64,000 nucleotides of DNA from positions 24,691 to 88,690 of IMG/VR virus record IMGVR_UViG_3300003691_000002. One strand, 5' to 3'. Shown piece after piece: positions 6,087 to 39,980 of the stretch (positions are counted from its first letter, which is position 1; each line of letters starts with the position of its first letter). This DNA comes from a virus. A model generated the notes under the pieces. That model saw nothing but the letters and a program-made list of their open reading frames with translations, ran no database searches and had not been told where the DNA came from. The position numbers were made by a program, and so were the translations under genes.

Positions 6087-9000
6087 TTATGAAGTGTGCA
6101 GTACAATTTAAAACAAAAGAGTTTTTACAAGACAATAATTTAATTGACTCTAATAATAATGTATTAAACTTAGAGGAATTTAAAAAAGCAGCAAGAACTC
6201 TTGATAATTTAGCTTTTTCTAAGTATTCAGTAGATACCTTAGACAATAGTTTATTTTCATTAAGGAATGAGGCTGATGGGATAAAGGTAGAGTATAATGA
6301 AAATATGTTTAATATTTTGCAAAATGCAGAAGCGGAATATTATACAGAATCTTTTCAATCTTTACTTGAAAAATATAAGCAAAAAGTTAACTCGTTACGT
6401 GTTAATAATAACTATGTTGAAGGTGATTTAGTAAGCGCTTTAGAGGATATAGAATTTACAGAAGTAACTGCAAGTACTACTTTATTTAATACGGAAAGAC
6501 CTTCTAATGCTAATGAGGCTATAAAAAGAATTTTAGAAGAAGATTTAGATGGGGAAGTTAGGGAACTTTTAGAGCAAATAGTAAGGAAATTTCCTGAGCT
6601 TAAAACTAAAATTCAATATGTTAGTGCTAAAGCTTTACTTGCTAAAACAAATGAGCCTGCTAATGTGATGGTCTATGACAGAATAAATAATGTTATATAC
6701 GTTAGCCCTGAACTAATTAAAGAAAGAGGTTACTCTGCTAGTTACATAAGTAACACATTTGTACATGAGGTAATGCACTCTGTTACTCTAAAGGCTTTAT
6801 TAGACCCTACAACCATAGAGCAAGAGCTTTTCTCAGAGCAAGTGGCACTGGAGTATACCAGACTAAAAGAAAAGGCGTCAGAAGAGCTTAAAAACAGTAA
6901 AGGATTTGCCAATAAAGAGGAGTTTGTAGCAGAAATGTTCTCTAATCCTGATTTTAGACAGGAAGTGAATAGATTAGACAAGAATTTTTTCGATATGCTT
7001 ATTAACTTAATAAGACGCATATTTGGATTCAAAAAAAATAATGTTTATAATAGGTTAATTAAATCAGGAGTAAGAGGATTTTCTCAAGAAAATATTAATA
7101 ATGAAAATGCTCCAGTTTATTATCTTAAAACAGATGAAAATTTTAAAGTAGATAATACTACTTTTGATAAAAGACTTGCTAATACTATAAAGAAAATCAA
7201 TAATTCTATTGATCAAAATATAAAACAAATTAAAGGTAAATTAGAATATCGTAAAGAAACTAATTATAATACAGAAGTATTAGATGAAATACTTTTAACA
7301 CTTCAAGCAATAGAAAATGATATTCAAACTACTATTCCTTTAGAGCAAATTAAAGCAATTAATGATTTTGTAAAATTAATTCAAAGATCTTTAAATACTT
7401 TAAATGCAGGACTTGCAAGAAGAGACCCTGAAAATTTAGAATACACTCGTAATCTTATTCAAAATTATACTGATATTATTTCTTATTATGAGGTTATAGA
7501 AGAAATTAAAGATATTGTTGTTGATTTAGAAACTTCTCGTCCAGAAAATATTTCCGAAGAAGATATAAAGAAGATAGCTGGAGCTACTAATTATACTTTA
7601 GGATTATTTTATAATGTACAAGGACAGCTGCATTCGTTAATTAAAGAACATATGTTTGATACTTTAAATGATATTAAATATCATAAAGAAGTAGAGAATA
7701 AACATTATCAAAGATTAAAACAAGAACATAAAGATGCTAATCTTATAGGAGATAGGGAACAGTGGATTATACAAATGATGTCTACTCGTGATAAAGAAAG
7801 AATAGATGAAGATGTTAAAATAGCTACTGAAGAATTAATTGCTAATCCTGTATTTGATATTAGTTCTTTTACTCTTAAATTTGTTTCTAGTGTTAATGTA
7901 GGTTCTAAATTTGTTCAAATATTAGAACATATGTTAAATGAAATATACACAGAAAGAAATAGTGAAAGAGAAAAAGCAGATCAAGAATTTCAAGATATTT
8001 TTACAGAAGCAGTTCAAACTAAAGGAACAAATAATATTAAAAAACTTTATAGTAATCTATATGAACAAACTGCTGATGGAACTTATTATTTAAAAGGAGA
8101 ATATTCTGTTAAATTTTTAGATGAGGTAATAGGTAAAATCAATACTGTTAGAGAAAAATATGATGAGCAAATTGAAGAACTTCAATTAACTTACTTAGGT
8201 ACAGACCCTGATAGTGATTTTTATCAAGCTCAAAATGATAAGGTAAGAGCTTTAGTTGAAAAAAGAAATACAGAAATAAAAGCTATTGAAGATGCTAATT
8301 ATGATTATGGCGCTGAAAATGAAAAAATAATTAAAGATAAATGGAAAAATGATTTATCTTCTTTATCTGAAATAGATAAAAAACTTTTAAGTTTCTTTAC
8401 TAAATCTTCAGAAGATATTCGTAAGCTTTCATATTCTGCTCCTATAATGATGAGCAATATTAAATATTATGGGAATGGAAAATTTTACACTTTACCTAAA
8501 ATTTCTAAATCTGATACAGAAAGATTAATTGTAGATAAAAATGCAGTAGGTTATGTAAAAGATAAATTTGCAGATAGAAATGTAAGAGTTGATGACGTAG
8601 GGTATGTAGAAGAAATGTCTACAGTTGCAGGTAAAAAGATTTTACAGAAAAAATTGTGGTATAGAGACCCTGTTGGAGTATTTGATTCTAAAAATCAATC
8701 TTTAGATTTAATGACGATATTCCGTTTAGATTATATAAACGCTCTTAATTATAATATAAGACATCAACATGAAGATAAATTAAATTATTTATTAGAAATA
8801 GCTTCTGCAAAAGAAAAGTTTTATAAAAAGAAAGGAAATTTATTAGTAGTCAATCCTAAATTAGAGCAAGCAAAAGTAATTGATGGTGAACAATCTAATA
8901 CTGCTGCTTTAATGAAACATATGATGGAAACTAGATTTTATGATGTAATGGCTAAAACAGGTACTACTTTTTTAGGAATGGAAGCGCATAAAATAGTCGA

Positions 9001-12923: not shown

Positions 12924-14123
12924 TTATTTTTTAATGTGATTTATACATTCTTTTAGGTTATTAAAATAAAACATTTTTAAATTTGAAATATTACTAAAAA
13001 TTTTATTAAACCAAACTTCTTCTTGGGTATTTTTAGTTACAAATATAAAAACTCTTCCTATTTTATTATTCTTTCTTAATCTTCCGATTCTTTGAATAAA
13101 ATCTTTATCTGTACTATAATAAGACATTATAATACAATTATCAACATTATTAAGATTTGCTCCTTGTTTTAATTTTTTAAAACTTCCTATAACATTTGTA
13201 ATTCCTTTTTCAAAGTTATCTCTTATTGCTGTATTTTCTGCATCAGTGTTACGAGAGCTTACAACATTATTTGTAACTTTATATAAGGAGTCTAAAGAAT
13301 TACTAAATATTATAGTTTTACTTTTTAAATGTTTTAAAATTTCTTTTGTTGCAGCTATTTTTGAAGGTAAATTATATAATATATTACTTCTTTTATGAGA
13401 AGTTATTCTTATTTTTAATTTTTTAGTTTCTTCGTCAGAAATAAACCACGCTGTTTTATGTTGTTTATCCCAATATGAGTATGCTGCATCTTCAGTTTGA
13501 TAGAATCTTTTCTTTTTATTACCTGCTTCTATAGTTTTATTTTTGTTATCTAATTCATGATTTATAACAAAAATTTCTAATTCTCTGGTTGTACCATCTT
13601 TTTGACCGTCTTTAACAGTATATTTAAAACAAATAGGAGCTATTTTATTTAATAAATCTCCTTTAGTATAAGATACAATTTCTGTTTCATATAAAGTTTT
13701 AGTATTAATAGTAGCAGATAATCCTATAATTGCATCATATTTATTATTAAAATAAAATTTAGAATATGCAGGAGTTAAAGAATCATGTATTTCATCAGCA
13801 ATTACTAATCCAATATCATTTCTTCCCTTCCATTTATAAACTGTTTGATAACAATAAAAATGTAAATTATAGTCTTCTAAAACATTTTTATCAAAAAGCT
13901 TGTTAAACTTATCAATATCATTTTTTAAATCTTTAATTCTATCTGTTGCTTCTGCTAAAAATAAATGTATTTTACCATCATTTTTAGGCATTGTATATAA
14001 AGCATGTAAAGATATAAAAGTTTTTCCTAAACCAGTTATGATTTCACAAGTACCTTTTTTATCTTTTTCGATCCATTTATGTAAAGCTTCTGTTTGAATT
14101 TTATTTCTAACAGAGTCTAACAT
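12924..14123 (-). CDS. Superfamily 2 DExH helicase (ResIII/Ssl2-like)
   Basis: TGLGKT, DEIH, GLSAT, QRIGR motifs. Confidence 0.9.
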   Translation of the reverse strand: MLDSVRNKIQTEALHKWIEKDKKGTCEIITGLGKTFISLHALYTMPKNDGKIHLFLAEATDRIKDLKNDIDKFNKLFDKNVLEDYNLHFYCYQTVYKWKGRNDIGLVIADEIHDSLTPAYSKFYFNNKYDAIIGLSATINTKTLYETEIVSYTKGDLLNKIAPICFKYTVKDGQKDGTTRELEIFVINHELDNKNKTIEAGNKKKRFYQTEDAAYSYWDKQHKTAWFISDEETKKLKIRITSHKRSNILYNLPSKIAATKEILKHLKSKTIIFSNSLDSLYKVTNNVVSSRNTDAENTAIRDNFEKGITNVIGSFKKLKQGANLNNVDNCIIMSYYSTDKDFIQRIGRLRKNNKIGRVFIFVTKNTQEEVWFNKIFSNISNLKMFYFNNLKECINHIKK

Positions 14124-14141
14124 AAAAAATTTTTTTTAAAT

Positions 14142-14173
14142 AAAAAAAAGGGCAGTGAAAACTGCCCTTTTTT
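14142..14173 (-). terminator. Intrinsic terminator after nrdA
   Basis: AAAAAAGGGCAGT-GAAA-ACTGCCCTTTTTT hairpin with flanking tracts. Confidence 0.85.
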
Positions 14174-14174
14174 A

Positions 14175-15803
14175 TTATGCTTCACAAGCTACACATTCAT
14201 TAATGTCTCTTGCAAAAGATTGTGCTGCACTTTGACTAAATTGATAATACAAAGTTTTAATTCCTTCTTCCCACGCATATAAATAAAGTTTATTAATTTC
14301 TTTAGCTGGTACAGAAGGATGAATCATAAGATTCAATGATTGACTTTGGTCTATAAATTTTTGTCTTTGTGCTGCTTGTAATATTAATTCTTTTGGACTT
14401 ATTTCAATAAAAGATTTAAATACTTCTTTTGTTGGAAAATCTAAATGTTGACAACTTCCATCATTGTCTAAAATAGATTGCCATACTTCAGGAGTATTTA
14501 GATCATATTTTTCAAGTTCCTGTTCAAGTATTTTATTTTTATATACAGATTTAGATTTAGCTAAATCTTTTACAAAATAATTAGACTTAATAGGCTCAAT
14601 TCCCATTGAAACTTGTCCTAAAATAAAACTACTAGATTTTGTAGGTGCTATAGCTAAAAGAGTAGTATTAGCAAATCCTTCTCTTAAACATTTATAACCT
14701 AAATGTTCATAACACCATCGAGAAGCATAGTCACTTCTCTCTTTTAAAGTAGAAAATATTTCATGATTTATTTGTTTAGTTTTTAAAGATTCAAATTCAA
14801 TAAGTTTAGATTGTAAATAAGAATGATATCCTAATACACCTAAACCTAAAGCACGATGTTCTTTAGCAAATTTATGTGCTCTTCCCATTCCTGGTAATTT
14901 AGAAGACTTTTCAATAAAATCTTCCATAACAGCATTTAAAAAAAGAACATAAGTTTCTATTGCGTCTGTATTTTTTATTTCATCCCAATGCAATAAATTT
15001 ATACTACCTAAACAACAAACAAAAGAACTATAAGAATCAGTTGGTAATTGTATTTCTGAACATAAATTACTTGCTGTAATTTCTAATCCTAATTCTTTAT
15101 AAGGAGTATTATTGTTACTGTTATCTTTAAACATAATATAAGGAAATCCAAACTCACTTCTTCTTTGAAGAACTTTAGCCCAAACTTTTCTGTTTGGAGA
15201 TTCTGGATTATTTATCATATCATGTAACCAATCGTCTGTAACAGTTACAGCATATTGTAAATTTTGTATAGGATTTCCTTCAATACCAATATCTAAAAAA
15301 TCCATAATATCAGGATGTTCAATAGGTAGATATAAAGCACAGGCACCTCTTCTAGCATCTGATTGTTTACATTTGTCTATAATAGTATCGTACATTACAG
15401 CATAATGTACAGGACCGTCTGCTTTACCTCCAGTACTAATATTAGCACCACGAGGTCTAATATTACCTAAATAAGCAGAAGTACCACCTCCATATTTAGA
15501 CATCATTCCTATTTCTCTACCTGCATTCAAAATACTGTCTAATGTATCGTCTACATTAGAACCATAACAACTAATCGCTAATGCACGTTCATAACCAAAG
15601 TTGGTCCATACAGGAGTAGAAAGAGAATAAAATCCTCTTTGCATATAATCCTCAAATTTTTGAGAAAAATTTTTAATTCCTAATATTTTTTCTGCGTGAT
15701 TAGCAATATCTTTAATTCTTTGTTCAGGAGTAATATTTTCTTTTAAATATCCCCTTGACAAAAATATTCTACTTTCTTCATTTAGCCAATAATACTTTTT
15801 CAT
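14175..15803 (-). CDS. nrdA: Ribonucleotide reductase class Ia alpha subunit (short form, no ATP cone)
   Basis: ISCY, SNLCSEI, VCCLGS, APTKSSS, KTLYY, C-terminal CVACEA. Confidence 0.95.
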   Translation of the reverse strand: MKKYYWLNEESRIFLSRGYLKENITPEQRIKDIANHAEKILGIKNFSQKFEDYMQRGFYSLSTPVWTNFGYERALAISCYGSNVDDTLDSILNAGREIGMMSKYGGGTSAYLGNIRPRGANISTGGKADGPVHYAVMYDTIIDKCKQSDARRGACALYLPIEHPDIMDFLDIGIEGNPIQNLQYAVTVTDDWLHDMINNPESPNRKVWAKVLQRRSEFGFPYIMFKDNSNNNTPYKELGLEITASNLCSEIQLPTDSYSSFVCCLGSINLLHWDEIKNTDAIETYVLFLNAVMEDFIEKSSKLPGMGRAHKFAKEHRALGLGVLGYHSYLQSKLIEFESLKTKQINHEIFSTLKERSDYASRWCYEHLGYKCLREGFANTTLLAIAPTKSSSFILGQVSMGIEPIKSNYFVKDLAKSKSVYKNKILEQELEKYDLNTPEVWQSILDNDGSCQHLDFPTKEVFKSFIEISPKELILQAAQRQKFIDQSQSLNLMIHPSVPAKEINKLYLYAWEEGIKTLYYQFSQSAAQSFARDINECVACEA

Positions 15804-31648: not shown

Positions 31649-31672
31649 ATTCCCCTCAATTAAGAGGGGAAT
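31649..31672 (-). terminator. Hairpin / probable terminator after helicase exon 2
   Basis: ATTCCCCTC-AATTAA-GAGGGGAAT inverted repeat followed by a T-rich run on the minus strand. Confidence 0.6.
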
Positions 31673-31676
31673 TTTA

Positions 31677-32615
31677 TTAATTATTAATTTGTTTTAAAGA
31701 AGTATATACTTTTTGCATATTTGTTATATCATCTGGTTTAGGTAATTCTTTAAAAAAATTAACTGCACCATCAAAAAACAAAGGAGCAACAGTACCTCCT
31801 CCTCCACTTCTACCTCCCAAAATTTCTAAAAATCTGATATGATCTCTAAAAGCTTTAATATCATACCCCATATATTCTGGAAGTTCATGTCTAAAGGGAC
31901 TAAATAATCCCATAATTAAATCAGCATCACGTTGAGTTAATTTACAATCACCTAATCCATTCAAGGTAGGTTTAAGTTTATTAGCTTTAGCGTGTTCAAG
32001 AGATTCTTGAGAAGCTGCTTGTTGTTGAATAACAACAGGTATATAATTATATTTATTTCTAAGTAAAATCAAATAATCAGAAGATAATTTTGTAATAGCT
32101 TGGTGTAAACTTGTATTATTTTCAGGAGTAATAAGTCCAACATGATCTATTATTATCATAACATATTCATCTGGATTATTAGGCTGATAATAATCATCTA
32201 TCTCTATTTTTTGTGTTTTACCTGTTTTGGGATCAGTAATCTCAATTTCTTTTTTATGTTGAGTACCATTAGCTTGCGCGTATTCTCTTAGTATTTTATA
32301 AATTCCAAAAGGATTTCTAATGTTATCTATAAAAGTTACTAATTCTTCTATTTTTTCAAAATAAGGTTTGTATTCCTCTATTTTTTTTAAAATTTCTGGT
32401 GACAATATTTTACTACTTTTAGTACTTCTAAGATCACTAGGAGCCACTCTAATGCCTTCTTTTAAATATAATATATTAGAAAAAGCAGAGAGCATTTTTT
32501 GTTCTTTAGACATTTCTAAACTAAAATAAAATATTTTTAATTTTATGTTTAGATTTTCATCAATTACTTTGCGAATAGGATTATAAACAAATAACCAATC
32601 AGTTATTTGCGTTTT
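31677..32615 (-). CDS. dnaB: Replicative DnaB-like (SF4) helicase, exon 2 (starts at Walker A KT)
   Basis: KTQ, FSLEM, IIIDH, IQQQ, LGDCK.TQRDAD, GR motifs. Lacks the first part of Walker A, which is encoded at 34789-34953. Confidence 0.9.
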   Translation of the reverse strand, partial: KTQITDWLFVYNPIRKVIDENLNIKLKIFYFSLEMSKEQKMLSAFSNILYLKEGIRVAPSDLRSTKSSKILSPEILKKIEEYKPYFEKIEELVTFIDNIRNPFGIYKILREYAQANGTQHKKEIEITDPKTGKTQKIEIDDYYQPNNPDEYVMIIIDHVGLITPENNTSLHQAITKLSSDYLILLRNKYNYIPVVIQQQAASQESLEHAKANKLKPTLNGLGDCKLTQRDADLIMGLFSPFRHELPEYMGYDIKAFRDHIRFLEILGGRSGGGGTVAPLFFDGAVNFFKELPKPDDITNMQKVYTSLKQINN

Positions 32616-32692
32616 CAATTTGTTACTAAAAAAGAAAATTCTTTTTCGATTAGGCCATTTCTGCCTAATTCTATAATTTAATATATAAAAAA

Positions 32693-33439
32693 TTATTCTA
32701 CTAATATTACTTCCTCATAAACAACTGAATCAAATACTACTGCATTTGAAAAATCTAATTCACTTTTATTAATAATCCAAACTTTAATATTGTTACTAGA
32801 TTTTACATTATGGGTTGTGTGAGTTAAAACTGAAGGATAATTAGATAAAACAGTATCAATAATACCATATCTAAGTTGAGCTTTTACTTCTGGTATTTCT
32901 TCCTCTTCTGCATCATTAAATTTATTATTTTCATCTGCTATATTAGTAGATAATAAAAAAAGAGTATTATCCATTTCTTCCATAACAGTGTTTATAGTAG
33001 ATGCAAAAATAGCTTCTGTAACAATATTTTTATCTTTTACTAAATTGTTATAAGTTAAAAATTCATCAAATACTTTATTATTTAGTAAAGAAGAAATAAA
33101 AGGATTAATTCCATAAATTTCTAAAATAGCACAACTAATAGGAGATTGTGTGTAAGAAAAGTTATCAAAAATATTTTTTAAAGTAAATATTTTTCCTTCA
33201 TTATATATTAAAGATAAATCTGTATTTTTTTGATGTAATTTTAACTTATTAATATCAAATTTTTCTTCTTCTTGTTTAACAATTTGGAAAAGTGATTTAC
33301 TATATTGTTGAAGAAGATTTAAATCATTTATAATTTCATATTTATCTTCTGTTTCATTTTCAACATTATAGATTTTATTAACAGATATTCTAAAATTTTT
33401 AGAATTTGTACATCTAATTTGTGTTGTCTTGAGATTCAT
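32693..33439 (-). CDS. Intron-borne hypothetical protein (in the P9 loop)
   Basis: 248 aa. Small N-terminal beta domain (IRC.N...ISVNKIY.V...Y.IIND...Y.K.LF). No homing endonuclease motif seen. Confidence 0.75.
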   Translation of the reverse strand: MNLKTTQIRCTNSKNFRISVNKIYNVENETEDKYEIINDLNLLQQYSKSLFQIVKQEEEKFDINKLKLHQKNTDLSLIYNEGKIFTLKNIFDNFSYTQSPISCAILEIYGINPFISSLLNNKVFDEFLTYNNLVKDKNIVTEAIFASTINTVMEEMDNTLFLLSTNIADENNKFNDAEEEEIPEVKAQLRYGIIDTVLSNYPSVLTHTTHNVKSSNNIKVWIINKSELDFSNAVVFDSVVYEEVILVE

Positions 33440-33489
33440 TTTTATAATTTTTTATATTTTATATTTATAGTTCGGACTGTCTCATCAAC

Positions 33490-33606
33490 CTAATTACAAC
33501 ATTTTTTACATTGTAATGCTTGATGTAATAAATAATCAGGTACATAAAATATATTTGTACAATTATTATTACAACATTCTTTTGGTTTTTTTACATTATA
33601 ATCCAT
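33490..33606 (-). CDS. Intron-borne Cys-rich mini-protein (38 aa, in the P8 loop; not in ORF track)
   Basis: MDYNVKKPKECCNNNCTNIFYVPDYLLHQALQCKKCCN; the start overlaps the end of the upstream ORF; zinc-ribbon-like Cys pairs. Confidence 0.6.
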   Translation of the reverse strand: MDYNVKKPKECCNNNCTNIFYVPDYLLHQALQCKKCCN

Positions 33607-34030
33607 ATTTTTTTAATTTTTCATCAAGTAATGGTTTTTCTTCATCTGGTAAAGAATCCCAATATTCCATTAAAATAAAATATACTTTTTTATAATCAGG
33701 TTGTTCCTTGTCAGTCTCTACACCGTTTTGTAAAATTAATTCAATTTCATACAAAGTATTTATAGATGTTCTTTTTCCATTTTGATAATCTATACATAAT
33801 TGTTTAATTTTATCAAGTGACGGCACGGGATTGTCTTCAACTAATAAATTGTAATCTGGTTTATTATACCAATCTTCTCTATATTTAGTTTTTTCTTTTT
33901 CAATTTCTTGAACTTTTTCATCTACTAATTGTTTAAGAAGTTCTATTTCATTTTTATGAAAAATTAGATTAAAATTTAATTTATATTGAATATTTTGTAA
34001 ATCTACATAATTTATTGGTATTTTTTTCAT
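33596..34030 (-). CDS. Intron-borne hypothetical protein overlapping the ribozyme core
   Basis: 144-aa ORF. The codons for EDNPVP and NGVETDKEQPDY are the intron Q and R/P7/P3'/P8 elements. Confidence 0.65.
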   Translation of the reverse strand: MKKIPINYVDLQNIQYKLNFNLIFHKNEIELLKQLVDEKVQEIEKEKTKYREDWYNKPDYNLLVEDNPVPSLDKIKQLCIDYQNGKRTSINTLYEIELILQNGVETDKEQPDYKKVYFILMEYWDSLPDEEKPLLDEKLKKYGL

Positions 34031-34068
34031 TGATTACATTTTATAATATTAAAGATTTTCCCCGTTTG

Positions 34069-34353
34069 CTAAAATTTTTCTTGCACAAATTTTAAAAACT
34101 CTGCAATAATTTTATCAGGATTTTCATTTTTATAAATTTGGCAAAATTGGCGTGCTAACTCTAATAATGATTCATAGTAATCATCTTGAATTAACTGAAT
34201 GTTCCTAATTTCTATTAAATTAGGAAATTTAACAGGAAGTTTTCTTTGTAGACTATTAACATTGTCTACTCTTACAAATTTTGTTATGATTTTCTCATCA
34301 AAAATTGTATCATCATCTGTTTCTACAAGTAATTCAAGAAAGTATGTTTTCAT
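34069..34353 (-). CDS. Intron-borne hypothetical protein
   Basis: 94 aa, ATGA-coupled to the upstream ORF. Confidence 0.7.
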   Translation of the reverse strand: MKTYFLELLVETDDDTIFDEKIITKFVRVDNVNSLQRKLPVKFPNLIEIRNIQLIQDDYYESLLELARQFCQIYKNENPDKIIAEFLKFVQEKF

Positions 34354-34733
34354 TTTCTTTTACGAGAATAAATTATTGAAGAGTCAGGTAATAAAATATA
34401 ATCTTTGCCTCTAAAAGCATATCTAAGAATATCTTTTGGATTTTTCTCTATACTTTTTCCTACTACTCTATTATTTATATCCATTAAATAAATACTTCTT
34501 GTATTATTTCTTTTATTAATATTGATAGTAGGAGTAAGTAAATTTAATTTTGCTTTTTTAGAAATTCTTTTAGATAAAACTTTAATAGTTTTATAAATAA
34601 CATCTTTAAGAACTATATTTTCTCCAGTAATTTCTTTTAAAGCGTGTAAATTAAATCCTTCTTCTTCGGGAAAAAATTCATTTATTACCTCTAATACAAT
34701 TAATTCTTTTTCATTTTTTGTATCTACATTCAT
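34350..34733 (-). CDS. Intron-borne hypothetical protein
   Basis: 127-aa ORF starting 55 nt inside the intron. Confidence 0.7.
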   Translation of the reverse strand: MNVDTKNEKELIVLEVINEFFPEEEGFNLHALKEITGENIVLKDVIYKTIKVLSKRISKKAKLNLLTPTININKRNNTRSIYLMDINNRVVGKSIEKNPKDILRYAFRGKDYILLPDSSIIYSRKRK

Positions 34734-34788
34734 TTTAACTTAATTCGGAATTTGCTGTAAATGTTACCACTTACAGGGGCAAAACTTT

Positions 34789-34953
34789 ACCCACTTTCGT
34801 ATTCGCAGTTAGTAAATAATATTTACCTTGTTCAATACCTGGATTTTCATTTTCAAAACGAGGTAATCCCCAAGGAATACAATTCACATGACCGTCAAGG
34901 ATTCTGTCTCTACGATCATTTATATCTTTTAAAACTCTATTATATAAGCTCAT
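34789..34953 (-). CDS. dnaB: Replicative DnaB-like helicase, exon 1 (55 codons)
   Basis: NCIPWGLPRFE...PGIEQGKYYLLTANTKVG is the SF4 helicase N-terminus and first part of Walker A. Spliced product is 367 aa. Confidence 0.9.
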
Positions 34954-39801: not shown

Positions 39802-39886
39802 TAGCTCAGAGAGGATTTGAACCTCCACGCTCTTTCAGAGCAAGGGATTTTAAGTCCCTCGTGTCTACCAATTCCACCACTGAGCC
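39802..39886 (-). tRNA. tRNA-Leu(TAA)
   Basis: GGCTCAG acceptor, GGAATTGGTAGAC D-arm, AGGGA-CTTAAAA-TCCCT anticodon arm, long variable arm, GGTTCAAATCC. No encoded CCA. Confidence 0.95.
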
Positions 39887-39906
39887 TTTAAATATTTATT
39901 TGTTTG

Positions 39907-39980
39907 TAAGCCTAGTAGGACTCGAACCTACAACCACCAGCTTAGAAGGCTGGTGCTCTATCCAATTGAGCTATAGGCTT
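39907..39980 (-). tRNA. tRNA-Arg(TCT)
   Basis: AAGCCTA acceptor, GCTCAATTGGATAGAGC, CCAGC-CTTCTAA-GCTGG, GGTTCGAGTCC. No encoded CCA. Confidence 0.95.

What the first reader, a model, noticed from the sequence alone, without database searches (positions are those of the whole stretch)
31677..34953. Replicative helicase split inside Walker A by a 2.17-kb group I intron that carries a five-gene cargo
Seen in sequence: the ORF track shows two helicase fragments, one ending ...TANTKVG(KVLPL*) and one starting KTQITDW. Joining 34789 to 32615 gives an in-frame 367-aa SF4 helicase with Walker A ANTKVGKT. The 2173 nt between them carry the group I hallmarks on the minus strand. P1 is exon GGGU with intron GCCC (34780-34777), placing a U.G pair at the 5' splice site. 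P10 is GUUUU (34785-34781) with 3' exon AAAAC. P2 is CUGUAAGUG-GUAA-CAUUUACAG. P4 is CGGGG/UCCCG, P5 UCUUUAA/UUGAAGA, P6 UGCCG/CGGUG, P7 GACUG (33716-33712)/CAGUC (33479-33475). P8 is 12 bp, CAACCUGAUUAU/GUAAUUAGGUUG. P9 is CUAUAA/UUAUAG, followed by a UUAGGC/GCCUAA hairpin and the omega-G at 32616. The core is broken into separate blocks spread over 2 kb, with five ORFs (127, 94, 144, 38, 248 aa) filling or spanning several loops. Established: phage group I introns usually carry either no ORF or one homing endonuclease. Inference: this intron acts as a multi-gene container inside an essential gene, linking accessory-gene expression to helicase production. I do not know of a described equivalent, but could not search.
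Basis: partly seen in the sequence, partly recalled or inferred. Interest (0 to 1): 0.95.

Follow-up and report, generated by a model that had tools for sequence, protein, structure and literature searches.

The report
Gene-carrying self-splicing intron in phage helicase
A marine crAss-like phage has its essential replication helicase gene cut in two by a 2.2-kb group I intron whose loops are filled with four or five protein genes, an arrangement shared by dozens of related phages, including one that can be grown in the laboratory.

Summary
On the minus strand, a DnaB-type helicase is interrupted inside its Walker A codons by 2173 nt (34788..32616). Joining 34789 to 32615 gives a stop-free 367-aa protein whose junction (KVG|KTQ) matches uninterrupted alleles.

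The insert has a group I core. P1-P9.1 all pair in the window, and all but P8, which I did not count, show compensatory changes across 16-29 relatives. P7 switches G-C/A-U in 29 of 29, P9.1 has 19 stem types with 126 of 126 cells paired, and U.G sits at the 5' splice site in 16 of 16. Rfam RF00028 misses the window but scores compact introns that carry the same J8/7-P7' string.

Both exons are under purifying selection. Some relatives have a 9-nt mini-exon between two introns.

Five sense ORFs fill a J3/4 insertion, L5-L8 and L9, and one reads through the catalytic core in a conserved frame (26 of 26). Cargo differs between relatives and is free-standing next to an uninterrupted helicase in others.

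Cultured Cellulophaga phage phi14:2 carries the same intron, unannotated.

No RNA data could be laid. First readers of this scan noted the same stretch in another window, and no one had followed it up.

The parts
34789..34953 (-). Helicase exon 1 (55 codons, ends ...ANTKVG). The frame runs 6 more codons into the intron to a TAA at 34773-34771, inside P2.
   Evidence: A homologous N fragment is found in relatives by tblastn. dN/dS is 0.15-0.28 between intron-bearing genomes where computable, which is 7 of 10 pairs.
32616..34788 (-). Group I intron, 2173 nt, 22% G+C
   Evidence: The borders are fixed by uninterrupted alleles (L012: AAAGTAGGT^AAAACACAA).
31677..32615 (-). Helicase exon 2 (312 codons plus stop), starting KTQITDW
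   Evidence: Pfam DnaB_C, 34.2 bits against a cut-off of 27. dN/dS is 0.08-0.22.
34777..34792 (-). P1. Exon GGGU plus intron AA (34792-34787) pairs with UUGCCC (34782-34777), with a U.G pair at the 5' splice site. GUUUU at 34785-34781 could form P10 with the first bases of exon 2 (32615-32611).
   Evidence: U.G in 16 of 16 sequences. One compensatory G-C to A-U change occurs in L128, which sits in another exon context. P10 was not tested.
34755..34776 (-). P2 hairpin CUGUAAGUG-GUAA-CAUUUACAG
   Evidence: 8 of 9 pairs show changes on both sides, and 91.5% of cells are paired.
34747..34750 (-). P3 5' strand UUCC (partner GGAA at 33707-33704)
   Evidence: 9 pair types in 19 sequences, 34 of 36 unique cells paired, and 3 of 2000 shuffles as good.
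34350..34733 (-). ORF1, 127 aa, in an insertion between P3 and P4
   Evidence: No family or homologue was found.
34069..34353 (-). ORF2, 94 aa. Its start overlaps the ORF1 stop (ATGA). It lies in the same P3-P4 insertion.
   Evidence: No family was found.
34049..34064 (-). P4 5' strand CGGGG (34064-34060), then AAAA, then P5 5' strand UCUUUAA (34055-34049)
   Evidence: P4 has 4 types, all fully paired. For P5, 0 of 2000 shuffles were as good.
33596..34030 (-). ORF3, 144 aa. It starts in L5 and reads through P5', P4', P6, J6/7, P7, P3' and the P8 5' strand.
   Evidence: In relatives the reading frame across the core is the same in 26 of 26 (16 different spacings) and open in 25 of 26.
33820..33840 (-). 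P5 3' strand UUGAAGA (33840-33834), J5/4 CAA, P4 3' strand UCCCG (33830-33826), P6 5' strand GCCGU (33824-33820)
33692..33726 (-). P6 3' strand ACGGU (33726-33722), J6/7, P7 5' strand GACUG (33716-33712), P3 3' strand GGAA (33707-33704), P8 5' strand (33703-33692)
   Evidence: The last P7 pair is G-C in 12 sequences and A-U in 17, paired in 29 of 29.
33490..33606 (-). ORF4, 38 aa, Cys-rich, in L8. Its TAG stop lies in the P8 3' strand.
   Evidence: Its DNA is 74% identical over 90 nt to a hypothetical gene of Flavobacterium crAss-like phages.
33475..33497 (-). P8 3' strand GUAAUUAGGUUG (33497-33486), J8/7 AUGAGA, P7 3' strand CAGUC (33479-33475)
   Evidence: The same string in compact introns aligns to P8'-J8/7-P7' of Rfam RF00028 (L212, 91.5 bits).
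32693..33439 (-). ORF5, 248 aa, in the P9 loop. It belongs to a ~200-aa protein family with a DUF6501-like N-terminus.
   Evidence: (604 cluster representatives at E<=0.001). In my loci, 14 of 17 family genes lie in L9 of this intron family and 3 of 17 lie just upstream of uninterrupted helicases.
32671..33470 (-). P9. CUAUAA (33470-33465) pairs with UUAUAG (32676-32671) around ORF5.
   Evidence: 123 of 126 cells paired and 6 types. The distance between strands is 5 to 981 nt in relatives.
32650..32668 (-). P9.1 hairpin UUAGGC-AGAAAUG-GCCUAA
   Evidence: 126 of 126 cells paired and 19 stem types, with a conserved loop.
32616..32627 (-). 3' terminal motif AGUAACAAAUUG, ending in the terminal G (32616)
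   Evidence: (G/A)UAACA, then a few bases, then G| ends the nine same-site relatives. The same ending is seen in compact introns.
31649..31672 (-). Terminator-like hairpin just after the helicase stop codon
   Evidence: No sense-strand terminator-like site lies inside the intron.

Best explanation
The 2173 nt between 34788 and 32616 (minus strand) are one group I intron in the DnaB-type replicative helicase gene of a marine crAss-like phage.

Inferred mechanism: the helicase pre-mRNA folds into the P1-P9.1 core. A free guanosine attacks after the U of the U.G pair in P1 (after 34789). The terminal G (32616) then docks, and the exons are ligated. This restores the Walker A loop (GKT) and yields a 367-aa helicase.

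The periphery of the intron carries protein genes:
- Two ORFs lie in an insertion between P3 and P4.
- One ORF starts in L5 and is translated straight through P5'-P8.
- A small Cys-rich ORF lies in L8.
- A 248-aa ORF lies in L9.

These are accessory genes of the replication module rather than recognisable homing endonucleases. Close homologues of the cargo of related introns stand free, in the same order, next to an uninterrupted helicase in other phages.

Shown here: the anatomy, the exact junction, covariation of the helices, purifying selection on both exons, and conservation and turnover of the cargo.

Inferred only: that the RNA splices, with or without help, and how and when the cargo is expressed.
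For: (1) Junction.
- Uninterrupted alleles (L012, L014, L018-L033) read ...KVG|KTQ... across the exact join.
- The conceptual splice gives 367 aa with no stop.

(2) The interruption is conserved.
- It lies at the same site in L001, L002, L004-L007, L010 and L011, and 4 nt upstream in L013 and L016.
- It is also present in L044, L066, L136, L165, L202 and L220.
- Of the 119 nearest helicase clusters, 93 are of C-fragment length (303-339 aa) and 26 are full length (368-381 aa).

(3) Core helices covary.
- P1 and P2: 92.8% of cells paired, 9 pairs with changes on both sides, 0 of 500 shuffles as good, and slid controls at 32-57%.
- P3-P7: 591 of 615 cells paired in 29 members. Compensatory types occur in P3 (UUCC/GGAA, UUCA/UGAA, CACC/GGUG, CUUU/GAAG, CUCC/GGAG, CUCA/UGAG) and in P4 (CGGCG/CGCCG, CGGUG/UACCG, CGAGG/UCUCG), and also in P5 and P7.
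- P9: 123 of 126 cells paired. P9.1: 126 of 126 cells paired.

(4) Group I hallmarks.
- U.G at the 5' splice site in 16 of 16.
- G at the intron's 3' end in all nine same-site relatives.
- A stop in the exon-1 frame 6 codons into the intron.
- J6/7, J8/7 and P7 strings like those that RF00028 aligns in L212, L184, L079 and L062.

(5) Mini-exon. L004, L005 and L007 have a 9-nt mini-exon (AAAGTGGGT, AAAGTAGGT, AAAATTGGT, coding K-V/I-G) between this intron and a second, compact intron. Only RNA splicing can use such a piece.

(6) Selection. dN/dS is 0.15-0.28 for exon 1 where computable (7 of 10 pairs) and 0.08-0.22 for exon 2, at near-saturated synonymous divergence.

(7) The same intron family sits in DNA polymerase A genes (L046/L195, L171) and in other exon contexts (L068, L128).

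(8) Cellulophaga phage phi14:2 has the same exon 1 (annotated g024), the same P1-P9 strings, four ORFs (g025-g028) and exon 2 (g029).
Against: - No RNA evidence.
- Rfam RF00028 gives no match in the window even at E<=10. It also gives none in five same-site relatives at E<=1, none in a closer search of L007 at E<=10, and none in 5 of 9 compact pattern-bearing loci. Large insertions would defeat the model, but the test as run was not met.
- P3 is only 4 bp, and its strands lie about 1 kb apart.
- An insertion between P3 and P4 is not a usual site for peripheral elements. This is my recollection, not something I tested.
- Ribosomes translating ORF3 would unfold P4-P8.
- No homing endonuclease is recognisable in the window's copy.
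- Two of 19 P3 pairs have one mismatch each.
- For L001, L049 and L165 the P3 5' strand was located by a short motif inside ORF-bearing sequence, where chance matches are possible.
Confidence: 0.88

Rival explanations
1. The intron is real but dead or dying. The helicase gene is a pseudogene in two pieces, and another helicase does the work.
For: - The window's copy has no recognisable endonuclease.
- Rfam gives no match.
- There are no RNA data.
Against: - Both exons evolve under purifying selection among intron-bearing genomes: dN/dS 0.08-0.28 in the pairs where it could be computed.
- Every core helix pairs perfectly in the window and matches the family consensus.
- The state is shared by most of the nearest relatives (93 of 119 clusters).
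Confidence: 0.04
2. The helicase works as two separate polypeptides (60 aa plus 313 aa) without any splicing.
For: Gene callers and the phi14:2 record annotate two separate genes.
Against: - The break falls between the K and T codons of GKT, the Walker A motif.
- The C piece has no ATG at its start. It is only a TTG-started ORF.
- L004, L005 and L007 keep a 9-nt piece coding K-V/I-G between two inserts, and this piece cannot be translated on its own.
- In L013 and L016 the break is shifted by 4 nt, out of frame, yet the pieces rejoin exactly to SKVGKT.
Confidence: 0.02
3. The insert is removed at the DNA level (site-specific excision) before or during replication, in the manner of an intervening element.
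For: A short AAA is present at both borders.
Against: - No recombinase is found among the ORFs.
- The conserved, covarying RNA helices have no role in this model.
- The insert is present in assembled virion or metagenome contigs of many phages.
Confidence: 0.02
4. The intron is real, but some of the 'cargo' is not. ORF1 and ORF2 (singletons) or ORF3 (conserved only where it overlaps the RNA core) are not functional proteins.
For: - ORF1 and ORF2 have no homologue in my 260 loci. The big protein search was run for ORF1 only and returned only ORF1 itself.
- In the ORF3 family, only the stretches that overlie P5'-P6 and P6'-P8 are conserved.
Against: - ORFs of this length are far beyond chance at 22% G+C.
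- The ORF1 stop and the ORF2 start overlap (ATGA).
- The spacing between P4' and P7 varies over 16 lengths, all equal to 2 modulo 3, in 26 of 26 members. This points to translation through the core.
Confidence: 0.1

Closest known systems
Phage group I introns with one homing-endonuclease ORF (T4 td, nrdB and nrdD; cyanophage Pf-WMP3 DNA polymerase IA2 intron). The T4 examples are recalled. Pf-WMP3 is known to me from a search listing only.
   Same: - A group I core in an essential nucleotide or replication gene.
- Insertion at a highly conserved catalytic motif.
- A stop codon for the upstream frame soon after the 5' splice site.
- ORFs looped out of peripheral helices.
- Some relatives do carry GIY-YIG or LAGLIDADG genes.
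   Different: - There are four or five ORFs instead of none or one, placed at four structural positions.
- None is a recognisable endonuclease in the window.
- One ORF is translated through P5'-P8.
- Size is 2.2-3.8 kb.
Hexacoral mitochondrial ND5-717 group I intron (PMC6545197, abstract read)
   Same: A group I intron that works as a container for several ordinary genes.
   Different: - There, all genes lie in P8, in an organelle.
- The giant forms are removed by back-splicing of a permuted precursor.
- Here the genes lie at several sites, in a phage mRNA that is also open to ribosomes.
Group I introns of gut crAss-like phages, Delta and Zeta groups (PMC7886860, passages read)
   Same: - Same virus order.
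- Introns in core replication and structural genes.
- Fragmented annotation.
   Different: - Those introns were found through endonuclease domains in MCP, PolB, primase and similar genes.
- The passages I read describe neither a helicase Walker A intron, nor multi-gene cargo, nor the marine Steigviridae-like lineage. The paper's supplements were not seen.
Fungal cob intron with five endonuclease ORFs (Exserohilum turcicum; PMC11835236, passage read)
   Same: Several ORFs in one group I intron.
   Different: All five are homing endonucleases, and the intron is mitochondrial. Here the cargo is of unknown function and partly shared with free-standing genes.

Membership tests
Group I intron | U.G wobble pair at the 5' splice site within P1, formed with an internal guide sequence | tested here: met
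   U.G in 16 of 16 aligned family members. In L128 the guide co-varies with a different exon.
Group I intron | Terminal G immediately before the 3' splice site | tested here: met
   G at 32616. All nine same-site relatives end in G, as does phi14:2.
Group I intron | Core helices P3-P9 in the canonical order, with the P3/P7 pseudoknot, supported by covariation | tested here: met
   - P3, P4, P5, P6 and P7: 591 of 615 cells paired in 29 members, with compensatory types.
- P9: 123 of 126 cells paired. P9.1: 126 of 126.
- The proximal 6-7 bp of P8 are nearly invariant, which is uninformative.
Group I intron | Conserved joining strands (J6/7, J8/7) and the P7 guanosine-site region as in the curated model | tested here: inconclusive
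   By eye, the window's strings match those that RF00028 aligns in L212. No model-based score was obtained for the window itself.
Group I intron (Rfam RF00028) | Covariance-model score at or above the gathering score (50 bits) | tested here: not met
   - No match in the window at gathering or at E<=10.
- No match in L004-L007 and L011.
- Compact introns with the same J8/7-P7' string score 56.7-91.5 bits in 4 of 9 loci.
Group I intron | Guanosine-dependent self-splicing with exon ligation | not testable with these tools
A bench test is needed.
Mobile (homing) group I intron | Encodes a homing endonuclease | tested here: not met
   No endonuclease family was found in the window's five ORFs. Relatives have LAGLIDADG_2 (L011, E 3e-34) and GIY-YIG+NUMOD1 (L004).
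Subgroup IA2 (td-like) | Subgroup-specific features such as P7.1/P7.2 | not tested
   - The resemblance to T4 td strings is recalled only.
- No annotated intron was hit by blastn of the core against the phage records.
- The window has no room for P7.1/P7.2 between P7 and P3'.
DnaB-like helicase (Pfam PF03796 DnaB_C) | Profile score above the curated cut-off, and an intact Walker A after joining | tested here: met
   34.2 bits against a cut-off of 27 on exon 2. ANTKVGKT is restored by the join.

The most novel reading that the evidence does not exclude
The intron is a swap platform and a switch for replication-module genes.

Swap platform: accessory genes move between free-standing positions beside the helicase gene and loops of its intron. 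The same gene order is seen free in L014 and intronic in L016.

Switch: an ORF is translated through the catalytic core in a conserved frame, so translation of the cargo and folding of the ribozyme exclude each other on any one transcript. The ratio of helicase to accessory proteins would then be set by a contest between ribosome and ribozyme.

In addition, the widespread ~200-aa L9 protein family (ORF5, with a DUF6501-like N-terminus) would be either a helicase partner or a new kind of intron mobility or maturase protein.
Probability: 0.3. Interest if true: 0.9.

Novelty: new variant of a known kind. Interest (0 to 1): 0.77.

Why it matters
Phage group I introns are textbook examples of minimal selfish elements: a ribozyme plus at most one endonuclease gene.

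Here a whole lineage of abundant marine crAss-like phages keeps an essential helicase gene interrupted by an intron that is about 90% coding. The cargo differs from phage to phage, and one reading frame is laid over the catalytic core.

What follows from this:
- An intron can serve as a tolerated landing place for accessory genes inside an essential gene.
- It raises a testable question of how a 2-4 kb, ribosome-covered RNA still folds into a ribozyme.
- It corrects annotation. In phi14:2 and in many metagenomic genomes the helicase is called as two unrelated genes, and a 60-aa 'hypothetical protein' is really exon 1.
- Because phi14:2 and its host are in culture, every inference here can be tested at the bench.

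Tried and rejected
**Rfam**
- Whole window at gathering: two tRNAs only.
- The intron region at E<=10: only chance-level microRNA and snoRNA rows.
- Five relatives at E<=1: nothing.
- L007 3200-6050 at E<=10: nothing relevant. The compact upstream intron of L007, which has canonical-looking strings, was also missed. I therefore treat RF00028 as insensitive for this lineage.

**RNA evidence**
- The look-up of sequencing runs listed three marine-sediment metatranscriptome runs of one study, holding 0.16, 0.13 and 0.06 of the sampled words.
- They were never laid, so they say nothing about expression, splicing or habitat.

**Function of the cargo**
- Pfam, PHROGs and the Atlas gave nothing usable for the window's ORFs.
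- PHROGs gave nothing for ten cargo proteins of relatives.
- A profile of the ORF5 family against PDB sequences gave one chance-level row.
- ORF5 has no paralogue in its own 88.7-kb genome record at E<=0.01.
- Sigma-70-type promoter matches are at chance level: 36 found against 30.7 +/- 5.2 expected. Bacteroidota-type or phage promoters were not modelled.

**Readings considered and rejected**
- Intein: stops follow the break.
- Group II intron: no GUGYG start or domain V-like end was seen when reading.
- Translational bypass: 2.2 kb is too far.
- Alternative genetic code: the insert holds separate ORFs in three frames.

**Rows dropped**
- L075, L100 and L177 were dropped before the counts. Their match to the P7 anchor was weak, and they lack the P4' string.
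- L011 was not in these counts because its P8/J8/7 differs from the search pattern. It has a LAGLIDADG gene between P7 and P3'.

**Not seen**
- Supplements of the papers are closed. Supplementary Fig. 12 of PMC7886860 may list further crAss introns.

Full report
**1. What is in the window**

On the minus strand an ORF of 60 aa (34953..34771) ends ...LLTANTKVGKVLPL*. An ORF of 313 aa (32618..31677, TTG start) begins (M)KTQITDW.
- The second ORF is a DnaB_C helicase: Pfam 34.2 bits against a cut-off of 27.
- The nearest named relative is the helicase of Cellulophaga phage phi14:2 (54% identity), followed by gut crAss-like phages. The phage is therefore a member of Crassvirales.
- The genome record is 88,690 nt, and the window is its bases 24691-88690.
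- Joining 34789 to 32615 gives 367 aa without a stop, reading ...KYYLLTANTKVG|KTQITDWLFV....

**2. The two pieces are normally one gene, and the break is exact**

I ran tblastn of both pieces on 43 related viral contigs.
- A contiguous helicase is present in L012, L014, L018-L027, L030-L033 and others. L012 reads AAAGTAGGT AAAACACAA (KVG KTQ) across the site.
- Ten loci have 2.3-3.8 kb between the pieces at the same place: L001, L002, L004, L005, L006, L007, L010 (the same sequence as L007), L011, L013 and L016. Six more turned up later: L044, L066, L136, L165, L202 and L220.
- Among the 119 best helicase clusters other than the window's own, 93 have the length of the C piece (303-339 aa) and 26 are full length (368-381 aa). 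Some short ones may be cut by contig ends.
- Between five intron-bearing genomes, synonymous sites are near saturation (pS 0.40-0.81). dN/dS is 0.15-0.28 for exon 1 where it could be computed (7 of 10 pairs) and 0.08-0.22 for exon 2. Both pieces are therefore still under selection as protein.

**3. Relatives that only RNA splicing can explain**
- In L004, L005 and L007 the first piece ends three codons earlier (...ANS). An extra insert follows, then nine bases (AAAGTGGGT, AAAGTAGGT or AAAATTGGT, coding K-V/I-G), then the insert homologous to the window's. A 9-nt coding piece between two inserts makes sense only as a mini-exon.
- The upstream insert has a compact core with the strings AAUUGCUGGAAA, ACAAUCAGCAGCCAAG, UCAGAGACUA and AAGAUAUAGUCC. 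In L004 and L005 it also has a GIY-YIG+NUMOD1 gene. Rfam did not score it. L062, which shares the AAUCAGCAGCCAAG and GGUUCAGAGACUAG strings, scores 56.7 bits with RF00028.
- In L013 and L016 the break lies 4 nt upstream (AAGGT|...ATTG|AGGAAAAACT). The pieces still rejoin to SKVGKT, again with U before the 5' site and G at the intron's end.

**4. The group I core**

The non-coding ends and three internal blocks are conserved in the relatives. I collected more family members with two patterns from the P8'-J8/7-P7' block:
- 11 loci from viral contigs.
- 100 stretches from viral contigs.

The looser pattern occurred 231 times in the 258 loci then held. With the window added, 32 non-redundant copies also had the P7 block within 900 nt. 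Three weak ones (L075, L100, L177) were dropped, leaving 29.

Counts per helix:
- **P1 and P2** (tool count on 16 sequences): 92.8% of cells paired, against 80.9% in shuffles (0 of 500 as high) and 32-57% when slid. U.G at the splice site in 16 of 16. Eight of nine P2 pairs change on both sides.
- **P3**: 19 sequences, nine types, 34 of 36 unique cells paired, and 3 of 2000 shuffles as good. Two types have one mismatch each.
- **P4**: 22 of 22 sequences fully paired, with three compensatory variants.
- **P5**: 18 types, and 0 of 2000 shuffles as good.
- **P6**: 26 sequences. Three pairs hold in all 26 and two pairs in 24 of 26.
- **P7**: G-C in 12 sequences and A-U in 17 at the same pair, 29 of 29 paired.
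- **P9**: 123 of 126 cells paired, six types, with the strands 5 to 981 nt apart.
- **P9.1**: 126 of 126 cells paired, 19 stem types, around a conserved AGAAAUG loop. Only 21 of the 29 members had the anchor used for P9 and P9.1.

In the window every one of these helices is fully paired. Coordinates are in the parts list.

L186 has P3, six bases and then P4 in the usual way. The helicase clade has a hairpin plus UUAGCUAA inserted there, and the window has ORF1 and ORF2 at that place.

Compact introns with the same J8/7-P7' string are recognised by RF00028 in 4 of 9 loci tried: L212 at 91.5 bits, L184 at 73.3, L079 at 69.2 and L062 at 56.7. The other five (L190, L193, L238, L068, L186) are not. 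In the L212 alignment that string is placed on P8'-J8/7-P7'-P9 of the model.

**5. The cargo**

The sense strand holds ORFs of 127, 94, 144, 38 and 248 aa, which cover about 91% of the intron. The antisense strand has nothing over 71 aa. None of 2000 shuffles had four ORFs of 90 aa or longer.

All nine same-site relatives carry four to seven ORFs of 60 aa or more, on the same strand. The sets differ between relatives.
- The family of ORF3, which overlaps the core, is in 9 of 10.
- The ORF5 family is in 4 of 10.
- ORF1, ORF2 and ORF4 are singletons.

The core-overlapping ORF is conserved only where it overlies RNA core: KDNPVPSLD and NGVETxKEQP. However, the distance between the P4' and P7 anchors takes 16 different values, all equal to 2 modulo 3, in 26 of 26 members. 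The frame is open across the core in 25 of 26. In most members the ORF ends at the UAG inside the P8 3' strand. In the window it is ORF4, in another frame, that ends there. ORF3 and ORF4 may therefore be one older gene that has split.

ORF5 belongs to a real family.
- A profile of four members finds 604 cluster representatives at E<=0.001, and 243 at E<=1e-10, most about 200 aa long.
- Of 81 aligned members, 47 match DUF6501 at the N-terminus.
- Nothing informative turned up in PDB sequences.
- In my loci, 14 of 17 genes of this family lie 49-347 nt after the P7' string, that is in L9. This includes L128, whose intron sits in a different exon context.
- The other three (L014, L147, L117) lie just upstream of an uninterrupted helicase.
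- In L014, the genes between the replisome-organiser homologue and the uninterrupted helicase include homologues of the L016 intron cargo in the same order, at 61%, 39% and 35% identity.

The cargo is therefore made of ordinary, exchangeable replication-module genes. No function could be assigned. Endonuclease genes occur in some relatives only: LAGLIDADG_2 in L011, and GIY-YIG in L004, L005 and L013.

**6. A cultured phage has it**

In NC_021806.1 (Cellulophaga phage phi14:2):
- g024 ('hypothetical protein') is exon 1.
- The 5' site reads AAAGTGGGT|AGACAGATTTGCCCC followed by a GUAA hairpin and CUCA.
- The P4, P4', P7 (with P3' UGAG) and P7' strings are all present.
- g025-g028 lie inside the intron. 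g027 is the core-overlapping ORF and g028 belongs to the ORF5 family.
- The intron ends ...UUAUAGAACGAUAG| at 15765.
- g029 ('DnaB') is exon 2.

The intron spans 13150-15765, or 2616 nt. I found no paper that mentions this (searches; passages of PMC7886860 and PMC10136315 read).

**7. How it most likely works, and what is not shown**
- The helicase gene starts one base inside the stop of the replisome-organiser homologue. It ends at a terminator-like hairpin (31672-31649). No sense-strand terminator-like site lies within the intron. One transcript across exon 1, intron and exon 2 is therefore the simplest reading.
- Ribosomes on exon 1 stop at the TAA in P2.
- Splicing by the standard two-step group I pathway is inferred from the anatomy. 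It has not been observed.
- How the long-range helices form on a translated RNA is open, and so is whether the cargo is read from the pre-mRNA, from the excised intron or from internal promoters.

**8. Comparison and verdict**

This is a group I intron by every structural criterion I could test. It is not recognised by the Rfam model.

It differs from known phage introns in four ways:
- the number and placement of its genes;
- the absence of a recognisable endonuclease in this copy;
- a reading frame kept across the catalytic core;
- twin introns around a 9-nt exon in relatives.

Multi-gene group I introns are known in mitochondria, so the kind is not new. In my searches the phage variant is.

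Noticed in passing
L261 (NC_021806.1 12982-16707): Cellulophaga phage phi14:2 is cultured. Its record annotates helicase exon 1 as hypothetical g024 and exon 2 as a truncated DnaB (g029). The 2616-nt intron between them and its four ORFs (g025-g028) are not annotated as such.
   Followed up: yes
L004 2230-6003; L005 2394-6003; L007 3265-6003: There are two introns 9 nt apart in the Walker A codons, separated by a mini-exon coding K-V/I-G. The upstream one is a compact intron that carries a GIY-YIG+NUMOD1 gene in L004 and L005.
   Followed up: partly
L017, L035-L040 (about aa 225); L016 (aa 231/232); L041-L043 (aa 162); L044 (aa 105/106): The same helicase gene is interrupted at four other sites in relatives, by inserts of about 0.3-1.6 kb. 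The insert of L038 holds an RF00028 match of 54.3 bits (7941-8180).
   Followed up: partly
L046/L195, L171: The same intron family (same P8'-J8/7-P7'-P9-P9.1 strings and the same GUAACA...G 3' end) interrupts family A DNA polymerase genes. In L195 the polymerase is split between residues 424 and 425 of the window's polymerase.
   Followed up: partly
L014 3456-5754; L147 706-1389: Homologues of intron cargo genes stand free, in the same order, between the replisome-organiser gene and an uninterrupted helicase. In L147 the ORF5-family gene is the immediate upstream neighbour of the helicase.
   Followed up: partly
window 33820-33840 and 33692-33726, within ORF3 (33596-34030): The ribozyme core from P5' to P8 is also read as protein. 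The frame across it is the same in 26 of 26 family members despite 16 different loop lengths.
   Followed up: yes
window 33499-33588 (ORF4): This stretch is 74% identical over 90 nt to a 'hypothetical protein' gene of Flavobacterium psychrophilum crAss-like phages (FpV4, Fpv1-3 and others).
   Followed up: no
L184 1658-1886: A metagenome contig carries a group I intron (RF00028, 73.3 bits) inside a bacterial 16S rRNA gene. A 184-nt insertion further along the gene was not examined.
   Followed up: no
window 39802-39980: Two tRNA genes lie on the minus strand (Rfam 57.7 and 75.3 bits).
   Followed up: no
L261 1-582 (NC_021806.1 g018x): The PolB gene of phi14:2 is annotated as a join of two pieces, so that genome has at least one more interrupted replication gene.
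   Followed up: no
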